DNA of 64,000 nucleotides from Amoebophrya sp. A120. Its lineage: Eukaryota; Protista; Dinoflagellata. The stretch is taken from positions 6,980,356 through 7,044,355 of the forward strand of contig CAJINV010000005.1 of the NCBI GenBank assembly GCA_905178155.1, written 5' to 3'. Of this stretch, positions 188 to 45,317 are shown piece by piece. The position numbers and the translations under genes were made by a program. The notes under the pieces are model-generated. The model searched no databases. It was not told where the DNA came from and was given only the letters and a program-made list of their open reading frames with translations. Numbering within the stretch: the stretch's first letter is position 1; each line of letters begins with the position of its first letter.

Positions 188-3100
188 ATGAAGCTGAAGG
201 CTTACATCAGGCCACTCCTGGAGTACGTTCCGGAAATACAAGCGCCGGAGAACAAACTCCCTTTCTACACAAGAGCCAGCTACACGATAGGATCGCTGTT
301 GGCGTTTTTAGTGGCATCACAGTACTTGTTAAATAATAGCTCCCTGTTTATGTTGTTCCTCTTCGCTGCAGTTGCATTTCTCATACAGCTGCTTTGGCAC
401 AAAGTTGTTTTGATTTGTCGACGCATAATTGATGTTGACGGCGTGGTGCACATGTGTGTCCACCCCACTATACATGAAGCATGAACATCAAACGATATTT
501 TCACGAAAAATAACAGGATTCCTCTCTACGGTCTCGCAGCCGGCGGCGCGGGAAAGAATGACCCGTTTTACTGGCTCCGAGCCATTCTCGCGTCGAATAG
601 GGGGACTTTGATGGAGCTCGGAATCGCGCCCATCGTGACGATATGAAATGCAAAAGCATCGTACTAGTATGAACTGCAATACAAGTTGTCTCAGCATGGG
701 AAATAGAATTTGTAATGCTGATTGACCTTAGAAAAAAGATTTGCAATGCATAACTGCAGTGACACTTTTGCATTTCATATACGACAAGCATGATACTGCA
801 GTTTCTCGCCGGGTCGAAAATTATCGAACTTGACCAGAATAACCGGGAGGACAGGATTATCTACGCCGCCGTGCAGAAGCTCGCCGGTTTGGCGTTCACC
901 GCGATACAGGCCTTTATGTACGTGACCAGCGGAATGTACGGAGCGCCATCAGTATCCACAGTAAATTTCCCGTACGCGTACAAATGCAGTCTCTGCATGA
1001 GAAAACTGGGCTTCGATCCTAGTTTAGCATGACGAATTGGTGCAATTTGTGATGCATCTTGTACATGTACGGGCAAAATTTGTATTGCATAATCAGCGTT
1101 AGGCGCGTTTAACGGCGGCGCGATCGTTTTCCAGCTGACAGTAGCCGGGTTTATCGTGTTAATGTTGGACGAGGTGTTGACCAAAGGGTGGGGAATCGGC
1201 TCGGGGATAAGTCTCTTCATCACGACATCGATCTGCGAAACCATCGCATGGAAGGCGTTTTCCTTGGCCAGCGTGCAGACACGTATAGTTTATGATTACA
1301 GGAGAAGCTGCTTGGGATAATCTGTTTCAGCCCGATTTTTTCTTCCGTCAAGTTTATCTCTCTTTAGCATGTAAATGTATTTATAGCGTGCTACACGAAG
1401 CAGAGAAGCGGTCCGATCGTCTGCTACGACTTTGTGATGCAAAAATGCATGATGGTTGTTCTATCTTCGGATAAATCACGAAAAACCACCACAACAGCAA
1501 ACGGAGTGATGTTCGAGGGCGCAATCTCCAGCTTCATCCACCAGCTCATCTTCACAAATCACCGGCTTTCCGCCATTCTCGAGGCCTTCTACCGACCATA
1601 CGGAGCCAACATCACAAATTTAATCGCCACAGCAATCACCTTTGCGGTTGTGGTGTATTTTCAGGTACTATAACAAGTGCTCCTGCGAGCAGATGTTGCC
1701 CGCAGGCAGAGAATCCGTGCGCAGATACATGTTACTATCTTCAGGCAATTTCAATTTGTGAACTCGTGACGAATCCAATAAGAAAAAATAACATTTTGAA
1801 ACTTCGCGGAAATTGTTCTCTTCCTGGTAGTGTGTATGCTGACATCAACATGTAGACATCACAAACACTAAATCTTGACTGTCTATCAGGGGTTCCGGGT
1901 TGACCTCGCCGTGAAGAGTCAGAGGGTACGAGGGCAGACTGGAAACTACCCCATCCGCCTCTTCTACACGTCTAACATGCCAATCATTCTGCACTCAGCG
2001 CTGGTATAGCTTTTTCTCTTGTAGTTATGTCTGCATGACAGATTGTGTGACTCATTGGTGGTTTGCATGACAAATAACCGACGAGGACTTTCATCAAATT
2101 AATGGGGTGGAAATTAATATACAAAATCAAAAACCACCAAAACTTGATGTAACAGATCTCCAACGTGTACTTCTTTTCCCAACTCCTCGCCCGACGCTTC
2201 CGCAACAATTTCTTCGTGGGGTTGATCGGCCAGTGGCAGGAAGTGGAGTATTTGAACGAATCCATCCCGGTCGGAGGCCTGGCCTACTACCTGAGCCCGC
2301 CCGGCGGACTACTCGACTTCTGCTGGAACCCGTTCAGATCAGTGATGTACTGTATCGCAAGAAAAAACTGTTTCACTGTGAACTTGTGATGCAGAAAATG
2401 GATCGCAGAAGTGAGTGTCATGCCACACATGCAAGACAATGGATTTCTAGCTGTGTTTTTCCTTAGGAACCCCGCATGACAGATTTTCAGTGTGGTCACG
2501 CGTAACAAACTTGTGATGCAGATTTTGCAAAATCACCACAGTGAAACATTTTTTTCGTGCGATATACTGCACACTGGTCATCACCAGCTGCACCGTTTTG
2601 AGCAAGCTGTGGATTGACAGTATTCAATTTTTCGCTTGTCTTTGTATAGAGCCCTTCGTAAAGCAGATGCTGAATTGCATCTTTCTATCAAAAGCAGCTT
2701 GATACCCAACGCAGGCGTGGTTTTTGTCATGCACAAAACGGAAAAGTACGTACAATAAAAGAAAACTAGAAACAAAGTAAACAAAATCCCACAGTTTCCG
2801 GCGAAGCCCCCCGAGACGTGGCACGAAAGCTTATCCTGTGCAAAAGTATCGTACTCGTATTGCAATCCTGCATTACAAATCTTTTTGTTGAGGTAGATCT
2901 GCATTACAAATTTTATTTTTCATGCTGAGGAAATTTGTAATGCATTTATACGAGTGCGACACTTTATTTGCACTGCATAAAGCTCCGCGAGCAGCAGCTC
3001 ACCATTGTCGGCTACAGAAGTGAATCACTCACCGATGTCTTGAAAAAGTACATCCCGCAGTGCGCGGCATTAGGCGGCGCCATGGTGGCGATCTTGACCA

Positions 3101-3231
3101 TATTCGCGGATTTGGTGGGCTGCCTAGGGAGTGGAACTGGGATGCTGTTAGCGGTAAATTTCACCTACACCTATATGGAGCAATTAGCCCGGGAAGGAGG
3201 CGGACTGCCGAACATGGGGCTCTTCGCGTAG
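188..3231 (+). CDS. SEC61A: Sec61 alpha (SecY family) translocon subunit, 10 exons
   Basis: Joined exons give [94 protein letters not shown]. Five GT-AG introns (322-516, 1283-1497, 1665-1889, 2004-2155, 2620-2794) and four TIR introns. Confidence 0.95.
642..779. mobile_element. Introner-like non-canonical intron, family A
   Basis: TIR tatgaaatgcaaaag/cttttgcatttcata; TSD gacga/tacga; removal gives IVT-TSMILQ. Confidence 0.9.
953..1091. mobile_element. Introner-like intron, family B
   Basis: tatccacagtaaattt...aaatttgtattgcata; TSD atcag; restores GAPS-ALGA. Confidence 0.9.
2353..2564. mobile_element. Introner-like intron, family C-like
   Basis: tatcgcaagaaaaaa...ttttttcgtgcgata; TSD tactg. 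Confidence 0.9.
2832..2979. mobile_element. Introner-like intron, family A
   Basis: tatcctgtgcaaaag...ttgcactgcata; TSD aagct; restores VARK-LREQQ. Confidence 0.9.
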
Positions 3232-4498
3232 TAGAGTAGAAGTGGCGAGTTGTTGTAAAGACAAGTCCGACCCAGTTGTAAGAAAAAACAATGTCTGAAC
3301 TATGTGCGCCGCAGAAGCTTTTTGCTGTCGCGTATCGAAACCCAATGATGTGCTGAGTACTTTGTTGTCTCTCGACGCAACTCCAACTTTTTCAAATGTA
3401 ACGACAAGGGTAAAAGAATGAAGGATCATTCATTTGAATTTTTTTGGTCTTAGATGTAGTTGTGTCAACGTCCCTCCATGTTGACATTGTAAAACGCATG
3501 GCACTTAGTCTTCAAGAATCGCGGTCACAGTTGGCAGCGTAGCAGTATTACCAACCAACCAAGAAAACAACTTACTACTCTCCCTGTTGTAACGTACCGC
3601 GCACCTCCTCCTACGATGCGTGACTGTGAACTTGATTTCAATAGTTTTTGTGTGTGGCTGCATGGGCCGCGCTCGTCGAGTACTAGGTGCTCCTACTTCA
3701 AAATCAAAAATGTAAAAATTTGTTCTTCATTCGTCTGCGCCGATAAACGAACGAGAGATCATCGGCATCGACCACAAAGGGAGTTGTCGTGATTAAAAAA
3801 ATACACTGGATCAAAAAAGGTGTTATACTCAGTCGGTCTACATGTACACCTTGATCTTGCAACTTGATCATGGAGACGTTGTTCACCTCAATCTCACTTC
3901 ACGATCACAACAAGCGCAGCGTAAATGAAAAGTACAAGTACAACCGTGAAGACCCTCGCTGAGTAAGGCAGGACGAGGATCAGGATCTCTCTTCTGTAAC
4001 GATGTAGAGGTACAACAATAACAAAGAAAAACAACTCAGGTCAGCAACGAAAGGTGGATCTCTTGACGTAGTTCCAAATGGCAAACAGTTCCAGGATCTT
4101 CAGAAATTGATGAAGTTGAACCGATCAAATGCGATGCTTGAAGATGCGCAAGATGAATCTAAGACTACAACGACCTTCATATGATATTCATCTGCACCAA
4201 ACATTTACAGTGACACTTGTTGCACCTGTTTGCCACTGGAGGACAACTTTAATCACATCAAAAGTAAAACTTGAAGCCAAACTGAAAGATACGGCAGTAT
4301 TCTATACTAGGTAGTCGCATTTATTGGAGATCTCTACTGCTACTATTCATTTTCTCTTCGTAAGCGTAACAAGTGAAGGTTGGAAGTACTCTTTTTCAAG
4401 GAATTTTTTTTCACTTTTGGAAAGACCATCGTCATAACCTGCTGTATATCGAAACTGCATCACAAATTATACCAACTTAATACACATCAAACAATAAA

Positions 4499-7399
4499 AT
4501 GTCCCACCTGTCCGTTGCTTCCACCGCGGAGCCGGCGGAAGCGGCTCCGGCCGCCGACCCGGAAGCCGTTCAGAACAACGAAAACCACGAGATCGACTCC
4601 GTGATTCCGGATGACCCGCTGGAAAACGAAACCCAGGCGCCGGAGGAGAACGATCAGGAGGGGAATGACGACAACGAAGATGACATCAATTCCGTCCCCC
4701 CGCCACCCCCGGAGGATGAGGAGGAACAAGAAACCGGTGTTGCAGCTGGTGGTAATATGTCTACCAACCAGCTGAACGCTGACGCTGCGGAGTTCACGAT
4801 GGGAAATAGTAATCAGGACCAACAAATCGCTAATATGAACCCGAATGTGGTGAGTATGATGGGGAATAACAATATGCAACACCCTATGGCAGGAGGCGAG
4901 AACAAGAACAATCACCACCGGCAGAAGTGGAATCCGATGCACTTTGTCGGGGAGTTCGAGGACTCTCTCGGCCACCGGATCACCTCCGTCGAGGTGCCGC
5001 CGCGGAACCCCACTGGACCGGGTATGAAACAGCCGGAGCCGTCCTTTCACGCCCACTTTGTGGCCAGAAATCGCCCGGATAAGAGGTACTGATTTGATTC
5101 TTCCTATATCAATCTGTTGCGATTGCTTCTGCTTGCATGACAGGGACTGCTTGCAATGGAATGTTCTTACGCATCAGAAGTTAGTTGTGCATCGAGATTT
5201 TTGCATGGAGATGTTCATGGGCTAATAGCATGAGAAACAAAGGTCTTTATTCGTTATGCGAATACACATACACATCGACGAAACACAAAAACAGGTTCGT
5301 CATCGCCCGGAAGCAGGTGATGCGATCGCAGAAGCGTGCTTGGATGTGCGGGAATGGGTACTTTTGCCACCAGCTGTCCAACCCCGACCGGATTGTCTTT
5401 CAGACCATCGATGGACGGGAAAACGTCTGGACGAGGCTGCCACCGGTAGAATTTTTGTTTGTCATGCAGTAACAGGCAAGAGACGCACGATTTCCGTTGC
5501 TACAGTGCTAGTTTAAGTAGTCTATGTTTATTGTGTGCTTCCTTTTAATATTGACGTTCAAGTTTGTCATGCATAATAGCCACAGCACTTCGAAATATTA
5601 AACGACGACACTACATCACACTATCAGGCCGGCGCCGTTTTCTTCGATCCGCCCCCGAATCTGACGATCGACGTGGATGCCGCAATGGCGCAGTGGCGCG
5701 AGGAGCACTTGAAACTTCTCGAGCAGAAGATGACGGAGATTCATCTGGAGGACGAGCAAGCGATTGCGGAGAAGGAACAACAACAACAGCAAATTTTGAC
5801 CGAAAAGAACGACACGACCGAACAACAAGAACAGTTGCAAAATAACGTTGAGAAGGTGGAAAATATTAACGCCGTCCAACGGAAAGAAAAAAACGACAAA
5901 AATACGACCGAAAAGCAGGCATTCAAAACTGGCGAAAGCACACCCTCAACAACTCCGGATGAGGAAAGCAAGGAGGAACCTAGTGCCACCGAAAACAAGA
6001 AATCCGACGACACCGAAGCCACTTCCTGGGCAGCAAAGCTGAAGAAGTCAACAGAGACGAAAGCGTCCTCATCAACTGCTACGAAACAGGAGAAAAAGGA
6101 CACCAAGCCAGTCCCCAAAGTCATGGAAAACGTAGAAAAGTCATGGCCACCAAAGAAATGGGCGGCCAATGCCAACGCGGAGGAATTTTTCCCGGCTTGC
6201 TTGGAATTGACCCGACCAAGAGTAAGCGGGAATGCGAAGCAGGTGAAGGAACTACAGGTAAGTATGAATTAATCTTAAATAAACAGATAAGTACCACTGA
6301 CTAGAGGCTTAAAGCGACGAGCTTGCGATGTATATTTTCCAAACATAGTTAGAGATAGAACCGCGAGTAGCATCATCTTCTTTGTAGTTGTGCAGATTCA
6401 AAATCAAATTTGACCTACTTTACTAGTTTGTCATGCATATTATCCGAAACAAAAAAAAACTTGTATCAGGTCCGAGCGGTCTCTGATGTTGGGATGGGCA
6501 ACCAGATGTTCTCCGAATTGCAGTGGACGTTGGAGGAAAAGTGGAGCCAGTTGAAGAAGAATCCGACGGATTTCGCAGTGGTGTCCCCGCACTTCTCAGT
6601 CGGCGTCGTGGAGAACGTATTTTTGCTTTACATACTGTTTGTACTTTTTGGCAGTACAGAGTCAGTTTGTCATGTAAGAAGAAGCATGAGAGGCTAATAT
6701 AGAAAGAGCAGCCAACATCCGCGCTTTATCTACCAAGAAGCCCAATCGTATCGCTATCTTGTATGGAAAGACTCAATACTCTGTCGTAAATGAAAAACAC
6801 AAAACAACTATCAGCTCCAACTTTCCTTTTTCCCGTCCGGGAGGAAAGCCAGCGGCAAGAAGTCGAAGCACACCTCGCTCCAACTGATCACGGGCGATTT
6901 GCAGGAGAGAGCCATGGGCTTGGAATTGGAAATTATGATCAACGGCATTCGGTGTGAAACCGCGAAGAAGACGGTTAGTGGAAGGTTATGGATGTGTCAG
7001 AATCGAAATCGTCAAAGTTGAACTAGTTTGTCATGCATAAAATGCAACGCAGAAATTGTCTCTATTGCAGAGAACGCAAGAGAGGCAGACTGTAAGCCTG
7101 TCGAGGGGCAGAAATAGAGCTGCCCAAGTAGCATGACAAAAGGCGTCGACCTTACCCAAACAGCATGACAAACTGGATTTAGATTCTACCCAAATTTGTT
7201 ATGCGCTACTTGGAAACTGGGCTGCAACTGGCCTCCACTTTACGCATGGCAAACTATTTCAACTTTGTTGATTTCGATCCTGACGCTTCCATAAAGGTTC
7301 ACCGGGGACTACCCGTCTATGGATGATAAGACGGAGGAGGTGAAGATTTGCTTGAGGATAATCAACTTGTTTAAGGACGAAAAAAAGATCGAGAACTAA
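4499..7399 (+). CDS. Multi-exon hypothetical protein with two PAM2-like motifs and a coiled coil
   Basis: ORFs 4499-5092 and 5673-6272 linked by GT-AG introns (e.g. 5086-5293, 5446-5627); QLNADAAEF and ANANAEEFFP resemble PAM2; last exon follows the TIR intron 6987-7293. Middle exons approximate. Confidence 0.6.
6987..7293. mobile_element. Introner-like intron, family D
   Basis: tatggatgtgtcagaatcgaaatc...gatttcgatcctgacgcttccata; TSD aaggt. Confidence 0.9.
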
Positions 7400-8481
7400 G
7401 AATGGTTCTCGTACTTCTCAGGAACAACGGACATCACGGATTTTGTTTCCAATCAACGCATTATAGAATTTCACAACAAGAAATCAACTATGATGTGGAA
7501 CTGGGGTCGCCTGATTACTCAACTTTTTGACGACCGAAAGATCGAAGTGTAAAGGTTTTGGCACTAATTGTATGCAGAATTGGCAGGGGAGGAAAATCTG
7601 GAAGACTGCAACGATTTTACGGCACAGTGATGACAAAATAAAGAGAAAAATCTACTTGACTCATTTACGCGCACGAGAGAAGATGAAACTTTTTATACTA
7701 AATGCATATGAACGCGTGATTTATTCGTAGGATGATGGGAGGAGGAAGACTGATTTTTAGAATCAAGGGCTTAATCTAGCGCTACACACTTTTTAGACGA
7801 CCAACGGCAAATAATGAAATTCCTATACCGGGTTTTTCGTTCCGGACGAAATATTAAGCCACTTACAACGCACTTTGATCAGTCTTTTTAGACATGGAAA
7901 AGCTGAAAAAATATAATTTCGGAGGGCAGCCGTCCCGCTCGCGGTTTTGGCCCCTGGGTATGAGCAGCCCACTTGATTGTTCCAAAGATGAAGATGTTCG
8001 CCTTGTTTGTATTGGTCGTCGTTCTACTTCGTTTCAGTTCTATCGTTGAAGATGTGCACGTGGTGTTTGACTAATTGCGTTATCAAGGTCGTTCGTTGAC
8101 CGTGAGAAATTCCACTTTCGTTCATCTTCCTATGTAAGTACCTAGATACAAATCGTCCTGTCCTTGCTCACGTCGTTCTCCCTGTCGTCGCCGTTCTCAC
8201 AACATCCCGACCGTTCTCAAAAAGCAGACCTGTCCACGTCGTATTCGTTTTGGTTTTTCAGAAATAACACGAAGTACGAGTTCCAACACTGTTCTAACAT
8301 AGACTACATTTCATCTCCGTTGTTGCAGGTTCGGCTACTCAGAGCGCCCTCGTGTTTCTTCTTCGCTCACGCAGAATCAATTACAAGAACCCTGCGTGTT
8401 GCATACGCCACCACATAGTAGCCCTCGAAATTGTTCGCATTCATTTCCAGCCTGTTTGGAGATTTTCTGTTTCTCAGAAAG

Positions 8482-9901
8482 ATGGTCGTACATCTATCGA
8501 AGAGTAGAGTCGGCAAAGCCACAGCCGTGTTGGCACTCCTGTCGCACACCGCTGTCTATGCCGATCCAGCCCCGGTACAACAACCGGCGGAAAAGAACGG
8601 AAGGCAACTACCTGAAATAAACACCTCGGCGGACAATCGTATCCTGAAGCCGAGACTTCGTGGGACGTTGCGGAAAAGAGAACTGCTGGAAGAGGCAGCT
8701 GCATCAAACCTGCTTCCAAGTAGCAACTTGATGCAAAAGCAGGAACTTCTGCAAGAACTACAGCTGCACAAGAAAGAAAACGACGGCGCACTCGAAAAAT
8801 TACAACGAACCTCCGAGCAAGAACTCTCCCCCAAGCCGCGCCTCCGCGGCACCCTCCGGAAGCGAGAACAGGAGCAGGCCGCGGCGATGTCGGCGGCTAA
8901 AGTAAAACTACAGGACAAGTTGGAAGGCGAAGGGAACAAGCCGACGGCTGCAAATGATGATGCAACAGCAACTGCAAGCAATTTGATGCAGGTGATGAAA
9001 CAGCAGGAGCTGCATCTTCACAAACACGATCACGGAGTCGTGCCACCGCAGCAGCTCCAAGACCACCTCGTCCAAGCCGGCTCGAACGAAAACATTTCAC
9101 AAGACCACCTTGTTCCCAAGCCCCGGCTCCGCGGCACTCTGCGGAAGAGAGCGGAGAGGGAGATGAAGCTGAAAAGCGCGCCGGACGGTGGTGCGGAGAC
9201 GAAAGAACTACTCACAGTCCCTGCTACGTCGGACGACAATGTGACGGAACAGCATGAAATAAACACCAAAGTCACCGCCAGCAGCACAACTTCAACTTTG
9301 CAAAAGCTGGAGCAACGGGAGCAGCAAAAACACGACCTTCAGCAAAACCACAAGTTCGAAACATTTATGCTGGAATCAAAGAGTTATCTCAAGGAGAAAT
9401 TCGAAGAACTCTCGTCGTCCATGGGCAAGAAATTGGACGAAATTGTCGACGATTACGTGCAGCCGTTTTTCAAATCCGCGGAAGAAAAAACCGTGGAATT
9501 GGCAAACGAAGCGCTCACTGGGGCCGTGCAATCTTTCACGGAAACCACGACAAACGGCCCGGATGAGGGCAGCTTCTGGGCGAGGTTTCAGAAACAAGAA
9601 TTCGCGGAGGTATGACAGTGCACAACTCCCCTTCCCCTTCATTTGTCATGCAATATACCCAGTCCACCCTTGCCTTTGCCACTTGGCACTGTTTGCATGA
9701 CAAGTTCTGCTTCTGGTAGCTTAAATAGCACTACTATAATGCTCTAGTGCAAATTTGTCATGCAAAACCACCAATCTTGTTGATGCTTGTATTGCTGTGT
9801 ATGGTATACAGATGAGGGGAAGGGGGAATTGTGCACTCTCATACGCGGGCGGGTTCGGAGATCAGATCGGGGACGAGGTGGTGGCACTGGGGCGGGTGTG
9901 A
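8482..9901 (+). CDS. Hypothetical secreted Q/E-rich protein with 3x KPRLRGTLRKR
   Basis: 394-aa ORF with a hydrophobic N-terminal segment (TAVLALLSHTAVYA); short final exon after the intron at 9611-9843. Confidence 0.7.
9611..9843. mobile_element. Introner-like intron, family E
   Basis: tatgacagtgcacaactcccc...ggggaattgtgcactctcata; degenerate TSD ggagg/cgcgg. Confidence 0.85.
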
Positions 9902-14000: not shown

Positions 14001-14018
14001 TAGCAGCCGAAGAAGTAG
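11008..14018 (+). CDS. neuB: N-acetylneuraminate/nonulosonate synthase (NeuB/SpsE family), short form without C-terminal SAF/AFP-like domain, 11 exons
   Basis: Joined exons: IVAEIGINHNGD, AGCDSVKIQKR, RDTPWGRMTYLEYK, FFASVWD, KIPSA, LIISTGMST, MHTNSTYPCP, IGYSGHE, VERHIT, SDQLSSVEP; 9 TIR introns plus one GT-AG intron (12308-12508). Confidence 0.93.
11084..11228. mobile_element. Introner-like intron, family A
   Basis: tatcctgtacaaa...tttgcaatgcata; TSD caatg; restores NHN-GD. Confidence 0.9.
11345..11606. mobile_element. Introner-like intron, family F
   Basis: tatcaaatgcaaaaatgtctgggtctggaag...cttccagacccagacacttttgcagttgata; TSD gaagc/gaaac. Confidence 0.9.
11648..11911. mobile_element. 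Introner-like intron, family F
   Basis: tatcaactgcaaaaatgtctggg...cccagacacttttgcaatgcata; TSD gacgt. Confidence 0.9.
12022..12179. mobile_element. Introner-like intron, family A (degenerate TIR)
   Basis: tatgcattgcaaaa...ttttggagagaata; TSD ggaca. Confidence 0.85.
12768..13073. mobile_element. Introner-like intron, family D
   Basis: tatgggagtgtcag...ctgacgcttccata; TSD gggtc; restores WGS-DQ. Confidence 0.9.
13132..13340. mobile_element. Introner-like intron, family C
   Basis: tatgcaagaaaaaaactgtg...cacagtttttttcttggata; TSD gggca. Confidence 0.9.
13381..13639. mobile_element. Introner-like intron, family G-like
   Basis: tat...tgttacaatctcaa / ttgagattgtaaca...ata; TSD aacca/aacta. Confidence 0.8.
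13656..13806. mobile_element. Introner-like intron, family B (opposite orientation to 953-1091)
   Basis: tatgcaacgtaatttt...aaatttactgtggata; TSD aggat. Confidence 0.9.
13859..14002. mobile_element. Introner-like intron, family A
   Basis: tatcctgtgcaaa...tttgcaatttata; TSD gcagc. Confidence 0.9.
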
Positions 14019-24155: not shown

Positions 24156-24192
24156 TCGCGCCGGCACTATAGGTTGTAGCGGTAGCGCCCAT

Positions 24193-35616: not shown

Positions 35617-35760
35617 GTCCAATTTACAAATTGAAATGTTTCCGCATCTTCCGCGCCGCCCCCATTCAGAGACAGTGAGCGCGTAGCCCGCGGCGCAAGC
35701 GCAACGAGTACAGATCAGGATTTTTCATAGTTTCTCCTTCTGCAAACGCAACAAGAAAAC

Positions 35761-38198
35761 GAGGATGACCCCATTGAGTACTGCGAAAGAAAATAAAAAT
35801 GCAGCATTTTTCACATTTTCGCTCATTAACCTACGAATGCCACACGACCGTCATGATTGTCCTGAAGAACCACCCGTGCAGGGGGTGTCTCGTGAAAGTA
35901 GCACCTGCGCGACTATGCTCGCATGATTGAAGAAGTTCTGGAATGAAAAAGCTAATATGATGTCTGTATCAATTATATTCATCAGGAGTAGTTGAACTTG
36001 AAGTTGTGTTTCACGTCGTCACTCGTTCGTATTTTTTGTCTTCTCGTTCTCGTGCATAATTTTGTTTGGAGGTCATGCAAGAACTTCAGCCGTGCAGAAG
36101 ATGATCCTTCGTGCAGTCAACATCATCGTGCAGCTCCAGTAGAAACTCTTATCGTGCTTCGTTCCCGTTAAGATCGTGATCGTCTGTAATGTTGAAGAAG
36201 AGTGTCATCATGACAACCGATACTATAATACCGAGCCAGCTTCATCACGATCTAGATCTTCGAGGCGATGAAAGTGGTTGCTCTGATAAAACATTACACA
36301 TTGCGTGTTGTAGTTGACGGTGCCCGTAAATGTTACCATAAGGAGATGAAGAAATAAAAAGGCATTCTGCAACAGGAGCAATAGAATCGGACTTATTGCA
36401 AGTTTTATCTACTTCTCTTTCCCCGTAACCAGTTGCTGTTGAGACGTCTTTCGAAGCAGCGCGCAACACTCTCCTAAAAATAAGCACGTCAAGGATCTGG
36501 CACAGCTTCGCGACTTGCTTCATCTGTACGTAGTTTTGCATCAAAATCAAAGCACGCCCGTGAAAATCAACACGATGCCCACACCTTCTCAGAAGACGTC
36601 GAGCACCGTTGGGCGGGGCAAAAAACAGCCGTCCTCCACAGCGTTGGCGGTGGTCACGGCGACGGGTTGCTTTTATTTTTCGGTGCAAGTCCTTCTCAAC
36701 TACATGCCGCACGTCGTGGAGGGTGCGCAGTTAGGGAAGACCAACAAGAAGAGCCTGCTGGCGATGAACAAGCAAGGCGTCGCGCAAAAATCGCGGGAGG
36801 CGAAGAAGACCCAGAAGACTAAAAAGAATCTCCGCGCGCAGACGAGCAAGGAAACGCTGCGTCCGATCTCGAGCGGGAGCGTGCCCGCCGCGGCCACCTG
36901 GACGAATCTGATCACGACCGCGACCGCGGCCCCCTTGACGAATATATGCATGAATGCGAAAAGAGGATGACCCCATTGAGTACTACGAAAGAAATTTTGA
37001 ATCAAAATGCAGCATTTATTTTCACACTTTCACTCATTTACTTAAGCTACGAATGCCACACGACCGTCATGATTGTCCTGAAGAACCGCCCGTGCAGGGG
37101 GTGTCTCGTGAAAGTAGCACCTACGCGACTATGCTCGCATGAAGAAGTTCTGGAATGAAAAAGCTAGTTTGATGTCTGTATCAATATTCATCAGGAGTTG
37201 AAGTTGTGTTTCATGTCGTCACTCGTTCGTATTTTTTGTCTTCTCGTCGTGGTTCTCGTGCATAATTTTGTTTGTAGCTGATGCAAGAACTCCAGTCGTA
37301 CAGATGATCCTTCGTGCAGTCAGCATCATCGTGCAGCTTCTTCAGTAGACACTCTTATCGTCCTTCGTTCCCGATCCCGTTAAGATCGTCTGTAATGTTG
37401 AAGAGGAATCTTATGAAGCCCGATACTAGCCAGCTTCATCACGATCTAGATCGAGGTGATGAAGGTGGTTGCTCTGAGAAAACGCACGCATAGTTTGCTG
37501 TTGACGGTGCCTGTAAATAATGATACCGGCATATGCAATAGAAGATGAAGAAATAAAAAGACATTCGCATTCTGCGACAGGAGCAATAGAATCGGACTTG
37601 TTGCAAGTTTTATCTACTTCTCTTTCCCCGTAGCTAGTTGTTGTTGAGACGCCTTCACAAGCAGCGCGCAACACTCTACTGAAAATAAGCACGTCAAGAA
37701 TCTTCTGGCACAGCTTCGCGACTTGCTTCATCTGTACGTAAGTGGTTTTGCTTCAAAATACTTAATCAGAGCACGTGGCCCGTCAAGTTGTGGATAAACC
37801 AATATGAAGATGGAGGTCGCCACAACTTCTCAGAAGACGTCGAGCACCTTTGGGCGGGGCAAAAAAAAGTCCTCCTCCACCGCGTTGGCGGTGGTCACGG
37901 CGACGGGTTGTTCTTATTTTTCGGTGCAGCTTCTCAACTACATGCCGCACGTTGTGGAGGGTGCGCAGTTAGGGAAGACTAAGAAGAAGAGCCTGCTGGC
38001 GATGAACAAGCAAGGCGTCGCGCAAAAATCGCGGGAGGCGAAGAAGAACCAGAAGACTAAAAAGAATCTCCGCGCGCAGACGAGCAAGGAAACGCTGCGT
38101 CCGATCTCGAGCGGGAGCGTGCCCGCCGCGGCCCCCTGGACGAATCTAATCACGACCGCGACCGCGGCCCCCTTGACGAATATATGCATGAATGCGAA
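35761..38198 (+). repeat. Tandem duplication of about 1.2 kb (35761-36960 and 36963-38198) covering upstream region and first exon
   Basis: Both copies begin gaggatgaccccattgagtac; ORFs 36515-36970 and 37804-38388 nearly identical. Confidence 0.9.
36575..36970 (+). pseudogene. Truncated duplicate first exon
   Basis: Ends at the duplication junction. Confidence 0.55.
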
Positions 38199-40529
38199 CT
38201 ATATGTCCTCTGGGTCTATTGATGAAATAGAAATTCAAATACAAATAATCCTGCTGTGCATTAGCATTTTATTCCCAGGAAGATTATGGAGCTCCGACTG
38301 GACTATTGCCAGGATAACGACGGTATCACGTGCAAATTTGTCTGGGTCTGGAAAGGTTGCGCTTGTATTGCGTGTCTCGCATTCCTGAAAAATCTGTATT
38401 GCATATAGCAGCAAAAGCGCCGCACTTTCGTCATGCAAAGGCGCAGTGTGTAATGCGTGCTGAGCATGCGAAGGCGTTTGAAAAATGTGTGATGCTTCAC
38501 TGAATCTGATCACGACCGCGACCGCGGCCCCCTTGACGAATATATGCATGAATGCGAACTATGTATATGTCCTCTGGGTCTATTGATGAAATAGAAATTC
38601 AAAAAATACAAATAATCCTGCTGTGCATTAGCATTTTATTCCATTTCCTGCTTCACGAAGTAAATGCAAAATATAAATCCGGCTATGGTGTGGCTGTGGG
38701 ACGAGATTCATGTAAGCGCATAATAGCCAAATAAAATGAGTTATTAAAGCTCTGTTGCAACTTGGGCTTTGATAACTCACGGGTAGACTGCAACGTAGGG
38801 GTTGTAACAGTGCAGGGTTTAATAACTCACAGTAGACTGCAAGAACTTACGGGTAGGTTGTTATGTAGAGCCTAGACTTTTCCGTGGCCGGCACGACGCA
38901 GCTGCAGCGCAATGCGTTCGAACAACTATTGCGAGCCCAGGGGAACAAATTTTTGCAATGCATAGGACTCACTTCCGGGGGGCTCCGTTTGTACGCACGA
39001 ACACAAGCCCGTCAAATGCAGCGATGGCAAAACGTATGGCAATTCGTGCAAGGCTATCAAATGCAAATATCGGTCTGGGCTTGGAAAATGCAAGATTTGT
39101 CATGCCCGTAGACCACCAATGTCAGGCATCTGATGGACGACGACGGCGGGACGTCGCGACACGCATAAAAGTCTGGAACGTTACACACAGAACAAGCATC
39201 CTCAACACAGCCTTTGCGAGCCCTTCCTCATGCCTAATATAATTCTGCATGTTGTACAAATACAAAAATCCACCACCTTTCCTTGCCTAGCCCTAGCATT
39301 CATGAGGAAAGTAGAACTACTACTGGCGTTCACGCGGCAACACAGATTTGGATTTTTCGTTCGTGATTTCGCATGACAAGTTGAAGGTCTAGAAACAGAT
39401 TTTCGATATTTGCAATGCATGAAAGCTGAGAACGCTGGATACAAGAACTGCGACCCCGTGGACGAGGTCGAGAAGCGTCCTCCTTCTGGTTGTCCGAGGT
39501 TGTTGAAACCTGTTTTGTGCTATCCACAGGAAATTTCCCGTACACGTACAAGAATAAGAAATGCGGTTTCTGCATGACCAAGCTTGCCTAAGATACCACT
39601 TAGCATGAAGACCACGAATGGCGTGCTCTGGATTGGCGAAATTTGTGATGCATTTTGTACATGCACTACGGGAAATTTACTGTGGATAAGTGCTACGACA
39701 AGGAGTACCAGGACAATGGTGACGGGCCCCCAGAAAATTATTTATTTGACAATTTGTGCCTGGTATGCATTGCAAAAGTATCGTACTCATAGTACTAATT
39801 GAATTGCAGCCAACATGCATTTACAAATCTTTTTGTAGTAGAGGTAGATCTGCATTACAGATTCCATTTCTTATGCTGAGGTAATGCGTTATTTACTAGT
39901 AGTACGATTACGATACTTTTGATGCACTGCATACCTGGCTGAAAACGATGGGTTCGACGACTCGGACTGCGAGGAGATTGACCCCGCCGAGTCTATGGGG
40001 GTGCAGGATTGAAATCGTCAGAGTTGAAATTATTTCAAAGTTGACAAACTATTTAATAGTTTGTCATGCATAAAATCGACACCACTTGGAAGCCCAATTT
40101 CCGAGCGGCGCATGACAAATTTCGGCACCGTCCGTCCAAATCCAGTTCGTCATGCTGTTTGGGGACAGAAGGCGTCTTCTGTCATGCTACTTTAGCAGCT
40201 CTATCGAAGACCGCAAACAGGCTGACTGTCGGACTCACTTGCCATCCCTGCAAGAGAGGCACTTCATGTCTTGCAATTATTTCCACTTTGTCGATTTCAA
40301 TTCTGACGCATCCATAACTTTCACTCCTCCGCCGCCCGGCGAAACAACCTCCTGTTCAACCGTGTACCCAGAGTGCTCTAAGGAGGTTCCGTCAGACATG
40401 CCATTTGAACATTTTTTAAAACAATGCGAACTGGCGTGCTTTGGCGACTATCCCACCGCTTCCTATCCACCTTTCTATCCAAGCCTCAGAATGGAAATCC
40501 TCAAAGTGGAAATGATTTGTAACGCATGA
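37804..40529 (+). CDS. Probable secreted Kazal-type protease inhibitor-like protein, multi-exon; link between the first exon and 38964 uncertain
   Basis: Joined exons from about 38964: VCTHEHKPVKCSDGKTYGNSCKAENAGYKNC and CPRLLKPVLC...FDNLCLAENDG...C. Confidence 0.65.
39055..39421. mobile_element. Introner-like intron
   Basis: tatcaaatgcaaatatcg...cgatatttgcaatgcatg; TSD aaggc/aaagc. Confidence 0.8.
39521..39688. mobile_element. Introner-like intron, family B
   Basis: tatccacaggaaatttcccgta...tacgggaaatttactgtggata; TSD tgtgc/agtgc. Confidence 0.9.
39764..39933. mobile_element. Introner-like intron, family A
   Basis: tatgcattgc...gcactgcata; TSD cctgg. Confidence 0.9.
39994..40316. mobile_element. 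Introner-like intron, family D
   Basis: tatgggggtgcaggattgaaatcg...cgatttcaattctgacgcatccata; TSD lost, but removing element+5 keeps the frame. Confidence 0.85.
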
Positions 40530-40874
40530 AATGCGATGCAAAGAAGAGTTAGAGTGTATTCGCACAAGATGTAACGGCGGCCGACTGTAGTTGTCCTTCT
40601 ACGGGTACATCAAAGAACAATTGGGGTGCACGTGCAGCTGATTAATAGCACGAGAAAATAATATTAAACGCACCCCTTTGAAGATGTTGCCCTAAGCCTA
40701 ACCAGCATGACAGACATTTGCTTTGAGTTGTGCCCGGGAATATTAAATCTGTCGTGCGCCTACTACTAGACCGAATGGCAGTCCAACTGGAGTTGTGGTT
40801 CTTTTGCATTACTTACAAATTTATGTTCACCTTCACTTTGAGGACTACTTCTAGCCTGAGGCTTTCATACTTTC

Positions 40875-41915
40875 TTCGAGGACCCCCTGGAGATGATCGA
40901 GGAAAAGTTGGATATGCAGCGCTAATCTGTCTGGGTCTGGAACAAGGAAGGAACTTCTGATGCGTGTCTTGCAGGCATGCAAGAGCTGTGTAGTTGCATG
41001 TTGACCAGCAAAAGTGGGACCTTTTTTGTCATGCAGAGACGCACGACCGTATGAGAAAGCTCGGTAAAAGAAACTTGTCATGCTTGGCGGCACTTGGAAC
41101 CAACACGAACAAGTGGCTCAAGAACCTTCATCCGAGGTCGCTCAGCATCACAGGTTCTTACCAGACGCAGATCGATATTTGCGCTCGATACTGGCGTCGC
41201 TGGAAGAAAAAATTGACACGCTCGCGATATCCTATGTAAAAACGTCCCCACCCCATTGTCAAGATGGGGACTCGGCTAGACAACTCCACAAGTTTTGGCT
41301 GTTTTGCATGACAAAATTGGACTCGTATTTATTGTAGTCCTGTTCGAGGTAGCTCAGCAGCATCACAGATCTAGTATATCGCGCTGATTGGAGCATGACA
41401 AATTCCAAATCACGACTGGAAAACTCTTCTCACGGGGCTCCGCATGAGAAACATTTTCAGCATGCAGACTTGCGTGACAACTCTAGGGTGGGGACGTTTT
41501 TACACAGGATACGCGACGCAAAAAAGCGACATCACTGGCGCCGTGTTTCAAAACGTCAAGACGGGCATTATGGCGTTCTCAAATGTTACATTCTCAACTG
41601 TTACATGAATTTGTAACTCAAGAACGGCAAAAGTGAATGGGGGAACGGGAAGCAGAAGCTTGCGCCTTTTGCATTACAGATTTGGCACAGATTTACATGC
41701 TGTTTAGCCTCTTCGGAGATTTGTCATGCGAAGTAACTTAGTGGTGGCGATCTTGGTGGCAAATTTGCATGACAAATCATGTAACAGTTGAGAATGTAAG
41801 AACATTTGAGAATTCCATAGGCACGGGCTGGTTTCGCGGACAGGAAACGCCACGTGAGACTCCTGAGACTATGGGTCCGCCGCCGCCGCCGACGCCCATG
41901 CCCCTTCGACGTTGA
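40875..41915 (+). CDS. Small multi-exon hypothetical protein, 5' end undefined
   Basis: FEDPLEMIEEKLESLEEKIDTLATQKSDITGAVFQNVKTG...WFRGQETP reconstructed across 3 TIR introns. Confidence 0.55.
40913..41190. mobile_element. Introner-like intron, family F-like
   Basis: tatgcagcgc...gcgctcgata; TSD ttgga/ctggc. Confidence 0.75.
41228..41511. mobile_element. Introner-like intron, family H
   Basis: tatcctatgtaaaaacgtccccacc/ggtggggacgtttttacacaggata; TSD cgcga. Confidence 0.92.
41569..41819. mobile_element. Introner-like intron, family G
   Basis: tatggcgttctcaaatgtt...aacatttgagaattccata; TSD ggcat/ggcac. Confidence 0.9.
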
Positions 41916-43657
41916 AGTGGACAGCTAGTACCTTAGCACCAATCGAGCGAAGGAGTCGAGGAGCCGTTTCAGGATTTAAGTATTTGCTCAACATGATCCG
42001 CTACAAACTAACAAGTCAACGCACCACAGCACTACAAATTTAGAAGCCAAGCAAGATCTTGAAGTCTTTGCTTTTTTGCGTATGAAAGAGCTTTGTTTTA
42101 CAAATGCAAATGCTTCACCGAAAACAATATGCCCCGTCTACATTAATGTTATAACTGTTATTCTTGTTTCTTTAGAGCAACCACATTTCGACACGGTTTT
42201 TCGAACTACGACAGCACCTAAAAACAATTTATCAAAAGCTTTCTTATCTGAAAATGAATTTCTGTTTATGTTTGTTCTGAAAGCCGGACACTTTTTTCTA
42301 CAGCAAAGTAAGTATCGCTCTTGAAGATGGACTGACCACGACTAGTATTTTGTTATTCGATTTGCTTTTCTTATTCAGATGTGTGACGACCCAAAAAGAC
42401 AAAAAGCAAGGGCGGGTATCCCCCGTAGCTCAGCAAGAGCAGCGGGTATCCCCCGTAGGTCGTGAGCAGCCTCTGCTTTGTTTTCTGGAGATGAAGTAGT
42501 CCTCAACGCGTACAAAAATATTTCTAACCCCCAGCCTCGTATTGCCAATGTTAAACTAAAAACAATTTACCGAACAAAGTCTAGTGCGTCGCAGCAGGCA
42601 AGAATAAGAAATGCATCTACTCTAGTACTAGTGCTTGCACTGAAAAAGGATGTCGAAACGCTTCATGTACCCCAAGTTGCCAGGCATCAGTTTTGCGACA
42701 ACTAAGAGTAAGATGACAAAGCGAACGCGACGAGCACCCGCCCCAACCCAAGAAGACCGTGAACAGCCCCCACATTTTGAAACGTAAAAAACACACCAGC
42801 TGCACGGCGGTAGCTCTTCTAGCTGACAGAAGTCCGCTAGGGAGTCATCTTTTCTCAGGCGGTTGATGGTCGTGCTGGAGGAGGTGATGTCGGAAAAATC
42901 GTCGGGTTCCACTTGCAGTTCCGATCGCAGTTGTTTATCTTTATATCTACTTCAGCAGCAGTTCCACCACTTCGACGTCTTTCTCCTCGTAGTTCCCCTG
43001 TAATATTCTCCACGTTGTGCACGTGGTGGCGCATCGTGTAATTTGTATATAGCTGTTTTGTTGTGCGTTGATCACGGCTTCTGCGTGTCCTGCTTTCCAA
43101 ATCATTTTGCACCCAGCACGAGGAGCTGTGCAAGTAGAACTAAATCGGAAAAGCCGCTTTGATAGAAGTTGAAGGCCACCTCGTCCAAGCGATCGTGTTG
43201 TTTCCATCGAAGATTTTTCATATCGTGCAACTAGTGTGAAAAGCAAATGGAAGATCTCATAGTCATACTAGACACAGTTGTGCTGATTCGTCTGATGCAG
43301 ATGCCACTGTCGACCTCGACTCCGTCGCTCCACCTGTTTCGTCCATTTGGATTTGGTCGTTCTTTCTATCGTTCAGGACGTAAATACAGCAGCTAGTAAG
43401 GTCTAAATCAATCTGTTTCAAACCAAAACTACGACATGACTTTCATCGCTCGGCGCAGGAAACAACTTCAACTAAAACCCCGCGGCCCTTTTCTGAAGGG
43501 ATAAAGGACTCTTCTTCATCGTTTATTTCATTGCGATCACTAGATCTAGAATTCAAGCCAAATCAAATCTGTCAAGTTTTTAAAGGCCTTCATCTCGTCG
43601 AACCAATTGTTTCGCTGTCCTGGTGTACTAAAGTAGAGGGACAACTACAAGACTAAA

Positions 43658-45317
43658 ATGACGGTGCTCTCGAAGATGATGTCCTCGTCGACGACGAACA
43701 ACCCAAAGCTGCAGCGCCGGACCACAGCGAGTTCCGGTCGTGCCGTTGCACTGGCAACACAACTTCTCCTCGCGTCGTCCTCCAGTACAACTTCGTTCGC
43801 CACCGCCGCGAAAGTCGGGAAGAACACGAACAAGAGTCTTCTCCTGTCAACAAACACCAAGAGCAACCTCCGTGGAGGTGGTGGTGCAGCTACTAGTGCA
43901 AGCGCCAGCACTCGTCCTGATGTCGCTCCGCTATTGCAGAAGAAAATCAAGACAGCCACCGCGGTCGTGGACGACGAGATGTTGAAAGATGCTGAGAAGT
44001 CCGCCGAAGCTGCAACTGCTTTTGCGGAAATCGCTCAGGAGAAGAAGCGCATGACAACTCTTGATGCGGACGATGATGATGGTGATGATGATGACGGTGA
44101 TGGTTCTGGATCTGATGATGACGATGGCAACGACGATGATGATGGTGATTATGATGATGGTATGGATTGTAAAAAGGTCTGGGTCTGGATGGTTGGAACT
44201 TGTAATGCTAACTTTCCATACCCAGAAAATCTGTATTGCATAACCGACAAAAGTCGCAGCCTCCTTTGTCATGCAAAAACGCAGTTTCTCATGCGGATTG
44301 CCTATGAGAAAGCGTTTTGGAAAGTTGTCATGCCGGACTGCATTCGGAAGTGTTTGCATCATGCACATTTTAGCATCACAAGTTTCCAGACCCAGACACT
44401 TTTGCATTTGATAGATGACGGTGAAGATGACGAGGAGTACCCTAGCAACGATGATGACGGTATCCTCAGTAAAAACGTACCCACACCATAGTTGTCATGC
44501 AAATCTGCATGCTTAAAATGTTTCTCATGCGGAGCCCCATGAGAAGCATTTTCTAATGGTGTTTTGAAATTTGTCATGCTCCAATTAGCATGAGAGACTA
44601 GATCTGTAGTGCTGCTGAACTAGCTCAAACAGCACTACACTACGCGTCCAGATTTGTCATGCGAAACAGCCAAAGCTTGTGGATTTGTCTAGCCGATTCC
44701 CCATCTTGACTATGGGGTGGGTACGTTTTTACATAGGATAGACGGTACCGAGTACGGTGGTGGCGGGGGTAGTTCATCCTCGACCCAGCCGTCGCTTCAC
44801 GAAGGGGTAGAAGCCGCCAAGGACTACATGGATTCCGAACTGGACAAGATGAAGAAAAACGTCGGCAACGCGTTGGACCAAACTGTGGACACCCTTGCGC
44901 AGCAAGCTATGGCATTCTCAAACGTTACATTCTCGACTTTAACATGAATTTGCAATGCAAGAATGGTAAAAGTCAAAGGGCGTACATTGGGCCTCTAGTA
45001 TTAATTACAAATTCGGCACATGTTATTTCAATGCTGTTTAGACCTTCAAAAATTTGTCATGCGCAGCAGCTTCATCGTGTGGATGTTGATGCTAATTTCG
45101 CATGACAAATCATGCACCAGGTGAGAGCGTAACGTCTGGGAATGCCATACAAGCTACCCAGGCCCAGGAGATTCAGAAGGAGGAAACCCATCGTGCGCAA
45201 GAGCAGGCCGAAAAACGGATCGATGCCGCTATCGGGGAACAAGTGCGTCAGGGCGGTGGGCAGGAGGTTCAAATGGTGGCGGAGAAGCCGATTGAGGCAC
45301 CCTTGATGGGCCGCTAA
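43658..45317 (+). CDS. Hypothetical secreted Asp-rich protein, 4 exons
   Basis: Hydrophobic segment AVALATQLLLA, NLRG motif, D-rich tract; three TIR introns restore the frame. Confidence 0.75.
44161..44413. mobile_element. Introner-like intron, family F
   Basis: Close to 11648-11911; TSD gatgg/gatga. Confidence 0.9.
44461..44740. mobile_element. Introner-like intron, family H (opposite orientation to 41228-41511)
   Basis: tatcctcagtaaaaacgtaccca/tgggtacgtttttacataggata; TSD gacgg. Confidence 0.92.
44908..45149. mobile_element. Introner-like intron, family G
   Basis: tatggcattc...gaatgccata; TSD caagc. Confidence 0.9.

What the first reader, a model, noticed from the sequence alone, without database searches (positions are those of the whole stretch)
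953..44740. The same intron families sit in both orientations within co-oriented genes
Seen: six pairs, all in + strand genes, are reverse complements of each other internally: 953-1091 vs 13656-13806; 2832-2979 vs 27280-27428; 6987-7293 vs 12768-13073; 13132-13340 vs 34345-34556; 11345-11606 vs 34869-35131; 41228-41511 vs 44461-44740. Known: spliceosomal introns are polar (5' site, branch point, pyrimidine tract). Inference: removal depends on a symmetric signal (terminal stem and TSD), pointing to a hairpin-recognising endonuclease/ligase route, a modified spliceosome, or DNA-level excision.
Basis: partly seen in the sequence, partly recalled or inferred. Interest (0 to 1): 0.85.

Follow-up and report, generated by a model that had tools for sequence, protein, structure and literature searches.

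The report
Hairpin introns spliced in either orientation
Genes of the marine parasite Amoebophrya A120 are interrupted by small transposon-like hairpin introns, already described, that are missing from the messenger RNA whichever way round they sit, and the cut likely falls one base before and four bases after the hairpin, which gives a direct test of how these introns without normal splice signals are removed.

Summary
Observation confirmed. All six pairs are reverse-complement copies in plus-strand reading frames. The window is Amoebophrya sp. A120, and the elements are its published TAT...ATA introners (Farhat 2021). I count 43, each flanked by a 5-base target duplication (TSD; perfect in 28). 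RNA contigs of one run lack 17 of them plus one TSD copy: both members of two named pairs, and both orientations of one family in a single NeuB mRNA. In a second assembly 184 copies split 98:86 by orientation. The DNA run keeps the elements, so bulk DNA excision is unlikely. Not found in the papers I could read: orientation independence, and a fixed cut register. Five sites with unequal TSD copies fit only one common cut, 1 base before TAT and 4 after ATA. TSD identity, +1 G and terminal AG are not needed. That cut makes the 5' end read N-TAT, like this genome's canonical GTA(T), so the symmetric ends deliver a polar signal in both orientations. Most likely machinery: a modified spliceosome guided by the stem (0.5); rival: a euglenid-like nuclease and ligase (0.35). 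No lariat or circle data. Known system, new testable property.

The parts
953..1091 (.). TAT...ATA element in Sec61-alpha, pair 1, perfect TSD
   Evidence: spliced model equals public protein P0001; 56 of 58 covering homologues same length at the junction
13656..13806 (.). pair 1 partner, opposite orientation, in NeuB
2832..2979 (.). pair 2, largest family (11 copies in the window, 5:6 by orientation), in Sec61-alpha
   Evidence: an RNA contig piece starts at 2979 and does not enter the element
27280..27428 (.). pair 2 partner, in a 1248-codon frame
   Evidence: open frame only; junction not covered by RNA
6987..7293 (.). pair 3
12768..13073 (.). pair 3 partner, in NeuB
13132..13340 (.). pair 4, in NeuB
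34345..34556 (.). pair 4 partner, TSD 3 of 5 alike
   Evidence: open frame only
11345..11606 (.). pair 5, in NeuB
34869..35131 (.). pair 5 partner
   Evidence: open frame only
41228..41511 (.). pair 6
   Evidence: RNA joint 41222 to 41512, 289 skipped = 284 + 5
44461..44740 (.). pair 6 partner
   Evidence: RNA joint 44455 to 44741, 285 skipped = 280 + 5
11008..14015 (+). NeuB-family gene (288 aa) with nine elements (11084, 11345, 11648, 12022, 12768, 13132, 13381, 13656, 13859) and one GT-AG intron; 12022 is opposite to its family members 11084 and 13859
   Evidence: Pfam PF03102; RNA contig 1618 = model 1618
158..3230 (+). Sec61-alpha gene (484 aa) with four elements (642, 953, 2353, 2832) and five GT-AG introns
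40913..41190 (.). element with TSD 3 of 5 alike; RNA takes TSD base 1 from the left copy and base 5 from the right, so the cut is inside the TSD
   Evidence: RNA joint 40908 to 41192, 283 skipped, 3 ambiguous bases
41569..41819 (.). element whose RNA takes TSD base 5 from the right copy
   Evidence: RNA joint 41563 to 41820
13381..13639 (.). element whose TSD base 4 decides Pro or Leu in NeuB; Pro means the left copy is exonic
   Evidence: Pro in 93 of 119 homologues, Leu in 0
59691..59840 (.). element whose TSD base 4 decides Ser or Asn; the public model has Ser (left copy)
39994..40316 (.). element with TSD decayed to 1 of 5; the public model fits an exon keeping 3 or 4 left bases
35201..35469 (.). 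further element removed in RNA
   Evidence: joint 35195 to 35470
40476..40869 (.). further element removed in RNA
   Evidence: joint 40470 to 40870
44908..45149 (.). further element removed in RNA
   Evidence: joint 44902 to 45150
642..63329 (.). span of all 43 elements; the others start at 642, 2353, 9611, 15610, 15936, 28505, 34604, 39055, 39521, 39764, 44161, 49612, 52718, 56928, 57348, 57988, 60107, 62475, 63088

Best explanation
These are non-autonomous, transposon-like elements with TAT...ATA inverted ends and a 5-base duplication that sit in exons in both orientations and are missing from the mRNA together with one duplication copy, likely removed from pre-mRNA by a modified U2-type spliceosome that is guided by the terminal stem. 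Steps: (1) insertion by a DDE transposase at nearly any site, either way round (inferred from the ends, the duplication and the 98:86 ratio; no transposase found). (2) The transcript folds so that the ends pair (predicted, equally for both strands). (3) The 5' cut falls 1 base before TAT and the 3' cut 4 bases after ATA (inferred from five informative sites, assuming one register), so exactly one duplication leaves and the protein is unchanged (shown for 17 elements). (4) The 5' end then reads N-TAT, matching positions +2 to +4 of this genome's canonical GTA(T) site; the 3' site would be set by distance from the stem, with no AG (inferred). Because ATA is the reverse complement of TAT, both orientations present the same polar ends, so orientation does not matter. 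Confidence in RNA-level, orientation-free removal is about 0.9; in the 1/4 register about 0.75; in the spliceosome as the machine 0.5.
For: RNA contigs lacking GT-AG introns also lack the elements plus 5 bases: 1618 of 1618 and 2576 of 2576, seven joints. Orientation 98:86 of 184, p = 0.42. Register: left bases kept 1-4 (40913) and at most 4 (41569) from RNA; 3-4 (39994, public model); at least 4 (13381, homologues; 59691, public model, looked up after the prediction). Canonical 5' sites: GTA in 10 of 10, +5 G in 1 of 10; +4 T in 34 of 60 and +5 G in 5 of 60 predicted introns. All nine predominant A120 non-canonical motifs in Table S4 of PMC7789003 are NT-NN, and all nine A25 ones TT-NN where the repeat begins TTA, so T-A falls at +2/+3 in both strains. 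A120 keeps nearly all spliceosomal proteins with U2, U4, U5, U6 but no U1 was found, while a strain with canonical introns has U1 (PMC12005148). G at TSD base 4, which is both last exon and last intron base, 79 of 204 against 0.306 (p = 0.015 uncorrected).
Against: No preference for G at +1 (A 54, G 52, C 45, T 30 of 181) or for terminal AG (23 of 204, 25 expected); from recall, no characterised spliceosome ignores both. The presumed 5' site is paired in the stem. No polar branch signal: A at -5 in 9 of 10 window GT-AG introns did not replicate (26 of 60 against 0.33 background), and the GCAT.A[CG]A motif is strand-symmetric (347:350) at no fixed distance. TA...TA ends may simply be what the transposase needs (PMC10045372). 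Table S4 may reflect the aligner's pull towards GT-AG-like letters (BLAT behaviour recalled). C at TSD base 1 deviates more than G at base 4 (p = 0.001), so that bias is weak. The register rests on five sites, only two of them direct RNA; one site in the second assembly would need at most 3 if its alternative open frame is the real one. All RNA joints come from one run (X3), those at depth 2.9-5.2. The public NeuB model P0121 keeps element 11084 in frame, reads into 13859 and has one more residue at 13656.
Confidence: 0.5

Rival explanations
1. A dedicated, non-spliceosomal pathway cuts the pre-mRNA at fixed distances from the terminal stem (1 base on the 5' side, 4 on the 3' side) and ligates the exons, as proposed for euglenid and diplonemid non-conventional introns. 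The match to GTA(T) would then be chance.
For: Complete freedom of the boundary bases; terminal stem predicted in 36 of 42 sense and 35 of 42 antisense folds; similar geometry in Euglena, where pairing starts at +4 and -6 (PMC6221363), excised introns are circles (PMC11282704 citing Guminska 2021) and distinct factors are suggested (PMC12501133 Discussion); RNase III-like or tRNA-splicing-derived routes proposed for diplonemids (PMC12621601).
Against: The register puts TAT exactly on canonical +2 to +4; A25 appears to use another offset yet the same T-A at +2/+3 (with the aligner caveat); U1 is missing where these introns occur; stem positions 4-7 can pair in only 41-68% of copies; no candidate enzyme was looked for (no genome held).
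Confidence: 0.35
2. Ordinary polar splicing: each orientation carries its own hidden canonical splice sites and internal branch point, for example from the GCAT.ACA motif present on both strands.
For: The motif is in 225 of 228 elements and equally on both strands, contains T-n-A-C, and is also enriched in GT-AG introns (8 of 9 in the window). Either-orientation introners with spliceosomal sites exist in Polarella (bioRxiv 10.1101/2020.10.14.339549).
Against: Only 3 of 43 elements offer GT/GC...AG in any register from -2 to +7; the sense-strand motif is absent from 10 of 43 and lies 40-207 bases from the 3' end; only 11 of 60 predicted GT-AG introns in the second assembly hold it.
Confidence: 0.08
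3. The elements are excised from DNA in transcribed nuclei, like ciliate internal eliminated sequences.
For: Symmetric ends and removal of exactly one duplication fit a transposase-derived excision; 754 joint rows were not shown, so a minority excised allele is not excluded.
Against: Contigs of run X5 at depth 42-47 cross exon-element junctions of RNA-removed elements (11084, 13859) and span whole elements (9611, 15936). The cut is asymmetric along transcription. That run may be the source of the assembly, and contigs drop rare variants.
Confidence: 0.04

Closest known systems
Introner elements / non-canonical introns of Amoebophrya sp. A120 (Farhat et al. 2021, PMC7789003)
   Same: Same organism (public proteins P0001, P0121, P0242, P0243 match window exons at 100%) and same elements: repeats starting TAT, seven free bases, then an A run; short direct repeats; hairpin; many families; 17% of the sequence.
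   Different: The sections and supplement text I read do not state that families occur or are spliced in both orientations, and call the intron border 'variable' and 'unknown'. Here both orientations are shown in RNA and one register is inferred. Figures were not visible.
Either-orientation introners of Polarella glacialis and Aureococcus anophagefferens (bioRxiv 10.1101/2020.10.14.339549)
   Same: TSD-flanked elements that create introns in either orientation and remove one duplication.
   Different: There the sites are GT/GC/GA and AG, recruited from specific TSD sequences, with a bias to one orientation in the simple classes. Here TSD bases are free and no bias is seen.
Non-conventional introns of euglenids and diplonemids (PMC6221363, PMC12501133, PMC12621601)
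   Same: No GT-AG, terminal stem that joins the ends, direct repeats, MITE-like origin, longer unpaired stretch on the 3' side.
   Different: Euglenid stems use CAG/CTG at +4 to +6 and -8 to -6; here TAT/ATA at +2 to +4 and -7 to -5. Circles are reported there and untested here. Unrelated lineage.
MITE-derived non-canonical introns of Fritillaria borealis (via review PMC11282704)
   Same: TIR- and TSD-flanked introns thought to be removed by an evolved U2 spliceosome.
   Different: Preferred AG-AC and AG-AT ends there; no end preference here.
IS3EU/GingerRoot DDE transposons (PMC10045372)
   Same: TA...TA termini.
   Different: 6-base TSD there, 5 here; no transposase seen.

Membership tests
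A120 introner elements (Farhat 2021) | Terminal inverted repeat starting TAT, seven less conserved bases, then at least three A | tested here: met
   43 of 43 start TAT, 42 end ATA; A at positions 11-14 in 190-214 of 228 (TAT itself was required by the detector)
A120 introner elements (Farhat 2021) | Direct repeat of 3-5 bases at the boundaries | tested here: met
   5 bases, perfect in 28 of 43 and 255 of 314
A120 introner elements (Farhat 2021) | Repeated families | tested here: met
   8 families of 2-11 copies and 11 singles; same families in a second assembly
A120 introner elements (Farhat 2021) | Removed from mRNA without GT-AG | tested here: met
   17 of 43 by RNA; 3 of 43 offer GT/GC-AG in any register
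MITE (non-autonomous TIR transposon) | TIR, constant TSD, no coding capacity | tested here: met
MITE (non-autonomous TIR transposon) | Autonomous partner with the same ends | tested here: inconclusive
   three elements of 815-1104 bases, longest open frame 238 codons, not searched further; no genome held
IS3EU/GingerRoot | TA...TA termini | tested here: met
IS3EU/GingerRoot | 6-base TSD | tested here: not met
   5 bases
Canonical U2 intron | GT or GC at the 5' end | tested here: not met
   G at +1 in 52 of 181; +2 T and +3 A are present in the inferred register
Canonical U2 intron | AG at the 3' end | tested here: not met
   23 of 204, 25 expected
Canonical U2 intron | Branch-point motif | tested here: inconclusive
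   -5 A did not replicate; internal motif not positioned
Canonical U2 intron | Lariat product, spliceosome dependence | not testable with these tools
   only contigs of this strain's RNA were available
Euglenid non-conventional intron | Stem that joins both ends | tested here: met
   predicted in 36 of 42
Euglenid non-conventional intron | CAG/CTG at +4 to +6 and -8 to -6 | tested here: not met
   ends are TAT[CG] and [CG]ATA
Euglenid non-conventional intron | Excised as full-length circles | not testable with these tools
   no back-joint at element ends among the 12 joints listed; contigs cannot show absence
DNA-eliminated sequence (IES-like) | Absent from the bulk of the DNA | tested here: not met
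   DNA contigs cross the junctions at depth 42-47; minority alleles and life stages untested

The most novel reading that the evidence does not exclude
Amoebophrya A120 has a second, non-spliceosomal mRNA splicing pathway: a stem-measuring cutter and a ligase remove tens of thousands of hairpin introns 1 and 4 bases outside a TAT/ATA helix, needing no G, no AG, no branch point and no intact duplication. Any TAT...ATA transposon with a 5-base duplication then becomes a silent intron at any site in either orientation, and the pathway arose in alveolates independently of euglenids.
Probability: 0.35. Interest if true: 0.85.

Novelty: already known. Interest (0 to 1): 0.5.

Why it matters
How about 65% of A120's introns are removed is an open question in the paper that described them. 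Orientation independence confines the signal to the element ends. The 1/4 register names the exact bonds cut, so lariat, circle and end-chemistry tests can be designed to the base. Either outcome is unusual: a spliceosome that ignores both +1 G and terminal AG, or a second case of non-spliceosomal mRNA splicing outside Euglenozoa. It also explains the invasion, since offsets that add up to the duplication length make every insertion silent. Practically, the rule corrects gene models (the public NeuB model keeps one element), and introner screens that demand same-orientation matches (PMC12130899 methods) would split or miss these families.

Tried and rejected
No whole genome is held, so genome-wide ratios, snRNAs, Prp8, Dbr1, RtcB, TSEN and transposases were not searched. 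No RNA holder is listed on record; X1-X4 are guessed to be RNA, and X3 is shown spliced by its loss of GT-AG introns. In one search, X1, X2 and X4 showed no exon-exon joint, and 27280, 28505, 34345, 34604, 34869, 39055, 39521, 39764, 39994 and 44161 had none in any run; lack of cover is no evidence. The joint table was filled by repeat contigs of the DNA run (754 rows not shown). Branch A at -5: 9 of 10 in the window, 26 of 60 elsewhere; dropped. GCAT.A[CG]A as an obligatory intron mark: 11 of 60 predicted GT-AG introns; dropped as obligatory. Stop-codon test of the register in the second assembly: 6 candidate sites, mostly non-coding frames, one ambiguous; inconclusive. TSD mismatch position gives no register (10, 10, 5, 6, 10). 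Viral contigs: 0 matches. Rfam: 0 matches. Pfam: 1 of 9 exon pieces matched. Literature: nine searches; none returned a paper stating orientation-free splicing of Amoebophrya introners, but subscription papers (Huff 2016, Henriet 2019, Guminska 2021, Roy 2023) and all figures were not visible. PMC4455052 and PMC12787238 passages added nothing. Earlier findings: none for this genome or sequence.
Full report
Observation. The six pairs are real. Each aligns as reverse complement with scores 139-359 against 37-76 on the same strand, and the signal stays after trimming 30 bases from each end: 69-279 against at most 34 same-strand and at most 27 in 200 shuffles. They are 12 of 43 elements that begin TAT, end ATA (one ends ATG), have terminal inverted repeats and are flanked by a 5-base duplication, perfect in 28. 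The list was curated by hand from a scan and from reading the sequence. Thirty-two fall in 8 families, 6 of which hold both orientations; the largest has 11 copies split 5:6 with no inconsistent edge among 29. All 43 lie in a plus-strand frame that stays open when element plus 5 bases is removed. The frame holding 15610 and 15936 is weak: a leave-one-gene-out strand test called 37 plus, 1 minus (15610) and 5 undecided.

What it is. Window exons match public proteins of Amoebophrya sp. A120 at 100%. Farhat et al. 2021 (PMC7789003; I read the abstract, sections 10, 11, 12, 16, 25, passages, and supplement parts 2 and 4 plus searches; no figures) describe these introner elements: repeats starting TAT, 3-5 base direct repeats, 1,954 families, 29,850 copies, 17% of the assembly, U1 not found, mechanism unknown, exact border unknown. 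The word orientation occurs there only for genes.

RNA evidence. Run X3 is spliced RNA, since its contigs lack GT-AG introns. One contig of 1,618 bases spans 10733-14494; removing the nine elements of the NeuB gene with 5 bases each and one GT-AG intron gives exactly 1,618, and any other common offset or any retained element does not. A sum could hide compensating shifts, but nearly all covering homologues (110 to 119 per junction, at most 2 exceptions) have the same length at nine of the ten junctions; the tenth is at the unalignable end. This mRNA has lost 11084 and 13859 and also 12022, the same family reversed. A second contig matches 4209-7897 at 2,576 bases with 6987 removed, so pair 3 is removed both ways. 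Seven direct joints each skip element plus 5, among them both members of pair 6 (depth 2.9-5.2, X3 only). In all 17 of 43 elements, and 7 of the 12 named, are shown absent from RNA. The spliced Sec61-alpha model equals public protein P0001 over 484 residues, which covers 953 and 2832. Against this: the public NeuB model keeps 11084, reads into 13859 and has one more residue at 13656; its pipeline picks the longest frame, and RNA length and homologues disagree with it. Whether X3 is independent of the public models is not known.

Orientation at larger scale. Merged to 130 stretches of 357,186 bases, they held 314 elements by a detector that finds 31 of the 43 window elements with no extra and 1 false hit in 198 kb of shuffled sequence. 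Host strand was called for 228; 48 were undecided, 27 looked non-coding, 11 had short flanks. Of the 228, 184 had a family: 98 in one orientation, 86 in the other (p = 0.42); the largest family 58:45; one per family and locus 81:71; 16 of 154 locus-family groups hold both orientations on one host strand. No RNA was laid on these loci.

DNA excision. Contigs of run X5 at depth 42-47 cross junctions of 11084 and 13859 and span 9611 and 15936 whole. Bulk DNA keeps the elements. A minority allele or another life stage is not excluded.

Where the cut falls. With equal duplication copies the joint is ambiguous over six positions; unequal copies resolve it. Let a be the number of left-copy bases kept in the exon. 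RNA gives a from 1 to 4 at 40913 and a at most 4 at 41569. The public model P0242 gives 3 or 4 at 39994. At 13381 the left copy gives Pro, found in 93 of 119 homologues, the right gives Leu, found in none, so a is at least 4. I then predicted Ser at 59691 and the public model P0243 has Ser, again a at least 4. A stop codon excludes a = 0 at 39521. One register fits all: a = 4. The intron is then one free base, TAT...ATA, and four free bases. This assumes a single register; no single site fixes it. The duplication need not be intact (3 of 5 alike at 40913, 1 of 5 at 39994), so it is a trace of insertion and not the signal.

What the ends contain. In that register +1 is A 54, G 52, C 45, T 30 of 181 and terminal AG is at chance, 23 of 204 against 25. 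Only 3 of 43 elements offer GT/GC-AG in any nearby register. The first and last 14 bases pair with mean probability at least 0.5 in 36 of 42 sense and 35 of 42 antisense folds (the 1,066-base element left out); positions 4-7 can pair in only 41-68% of copies, positions 8-20 in 84-98%. The ten verified GT-AG introns start GTA, have G at +5 once, and end A/C-rich without a pyrimidine tract. Of 115 GT-AG introns predicted in the other assembly (the method recovered 8 of 10 window introns exactly and favoured GTA), 87 passed length and flank filters and 60 had no likeness to elements; +4 is T in 34 and +5 G in 5. So N-TAT lines up with canonical G-TA(T). Table S4 of the 2021 paper lists only NT-NN as predominant in A120 and only TT-NN in A25, whose repeats begin TTA: T-A at +2/+3 in both, though aligner bias could produce this (recalled). 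Two ideas failed: a branch A at -5, and the GCAT.A[CG]A motif as a required mark. The motif is still notable: 10 per kb in elements, 7 in window GT-AG introns, 0.2 in exons, in 225 of 228 elements with 347 forward and 350 reverse. It may be a transposase-binding site (inference).

Mechanism. Shown: removal from RNA in both orientations, with one duplication, without canonical ends. Inferred: transposon origin, stem formation, the 1/4 register. Most likely a modified U2-type spliceosome reads T-A at +2/+3 and sets the 3' site by distance from the stem (0.5): the register matches the canonical site, the spliceosome is otherwise nearly complete, and U1 is undetected in the two strains with such introns but present in a strain without (PMC12005148 passages). 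The main rival is a stem-measuring nuclease and ligase (0.35), because nothing selects for G or AG and Euglena shows similar geometry with circular products (PMC6221363 passages; PMC11282704 passages; PMC12501133 passages and Discussion; PMC12621601 passages). Hidden canonical sites (0.08) and DNA excision (0.04) fit poorly.

Comparison and novelty. These are the published A120 introners. Either-orientation introners are known in Polarella and Aureococcus but with spliceosomal sites taken from specific duplications (bioRxiv 10.1101/2020.10.14.339549 passages; its supplements were not visible). Gozashti 2022 allowed opposite-orientation matches in its screen and Gozashti 2025 required the expected orientation and describes A120 families with integrase-like homology (passages). 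TA...TA ends recall IS3EU/GingerRoot, whose duplication is 6 bases, so membership is not met (PMC10045372 passages). Nine searches found no statement of orientation-free splicing or of the register for Amoebophrya; figures and subscription papers could hold one. Earlier notes of this scan report similar hairpin introns in other dinoflagellates and an offset sum equal to the duplication in Euglena; I did not test them.

Verdict. Real, known system; new and testable property. Interest 0.5.

Noticed in passing
window, all introns; e.g. 2004-2155, 5086-5294, 5446-5627, 12308-12508: Strand-symmetric motif GCAT[GTC]A[CG]A: 10 per kb in elements, 7 in GT-AG introns, 0.2 in exons, 0.5 elsewhere; weaker in predicted GT-AG introns of the second assembly (11 of 60, 16 hits against 2 by shuffle). 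Possibly a transposase site left in older introns.
   Followed up: partly
window 322-516, 1283-1497, 1665-1889, 2004-2155, 2620-2794, 5086-5294, 5446-5627, 6258-6469, 6617-6814, 12308-12508: GT-AG introns start GTA, rarely have +5 G and end A/C-rich with no pyrimidine tract, which suggests changed U1/U6 and U2AF recognition even for canonical introns.
   Followed up: partly
window 11008-14015: NeuB-family gene whose best relatives are one marine transcriptome protein (84%) and many unnamed metagenomic proteins (72-82%); possibly of bacterial origin, now with ten introns. The public model keeps element 11084 in frame.
   Followed up: partly
window 28505-29570; L003, L004: 1,066-base element with internal tandem repeats and G+C 0.60 inside a long frame; a relative at 89% over 569 bases lies in the second assembly; longest open frame 162 codons.
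   Followed up: partly
window 49612-50228: 617-base element that folds back over most of its length, starts TATA rather than TAT[CG] and lacks the internal motif.
   Followed up: no
window 22834-25389, 23387-23891, 54269-54421: Non-coding repeat region: a 40-58 base sequence three times, a nested fold-back with other ends, an end-less copy of the 52718 element at 24198-24448, and a duplication shared with 53673-55386. No ORF with an evident transposase by eye; not scanned against families.
   Followed up: no
window 35755-38642: Tandem duplication of about 1.2 kb (85%), followed by a broken copy of the end of the 34081 gene with a truncated copy of element 35201.
   Followed up: no
window 49033-50325, 51086-51220, 52128-53125, 57330-58268: Small paralogous genes that end in a Trp-rich motif (NWxWFW) followed by a short tail; no Pfam match for the two exon pieces tested.
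   Followed up: no
window 16639-18000: Intron-free frame of 453 codons with 23-residue repeats that look like MORN repeats (name recalled, not scanned).
   Followed up: no
second assembly, merged stretches 8, 42, 43: Family elements preceded by G (giving GTAT or GTAA) with a changed right end next to AG; possible intermediates between hairpin and GT-AG introns, but the frame cannot tell which 3' site is used.
   Followed up: no
second assembly, 27 of 314 elements: Elements whose flanks score as non-coding; they may be UTR introns or intergenic insertions.
   Followed up: no
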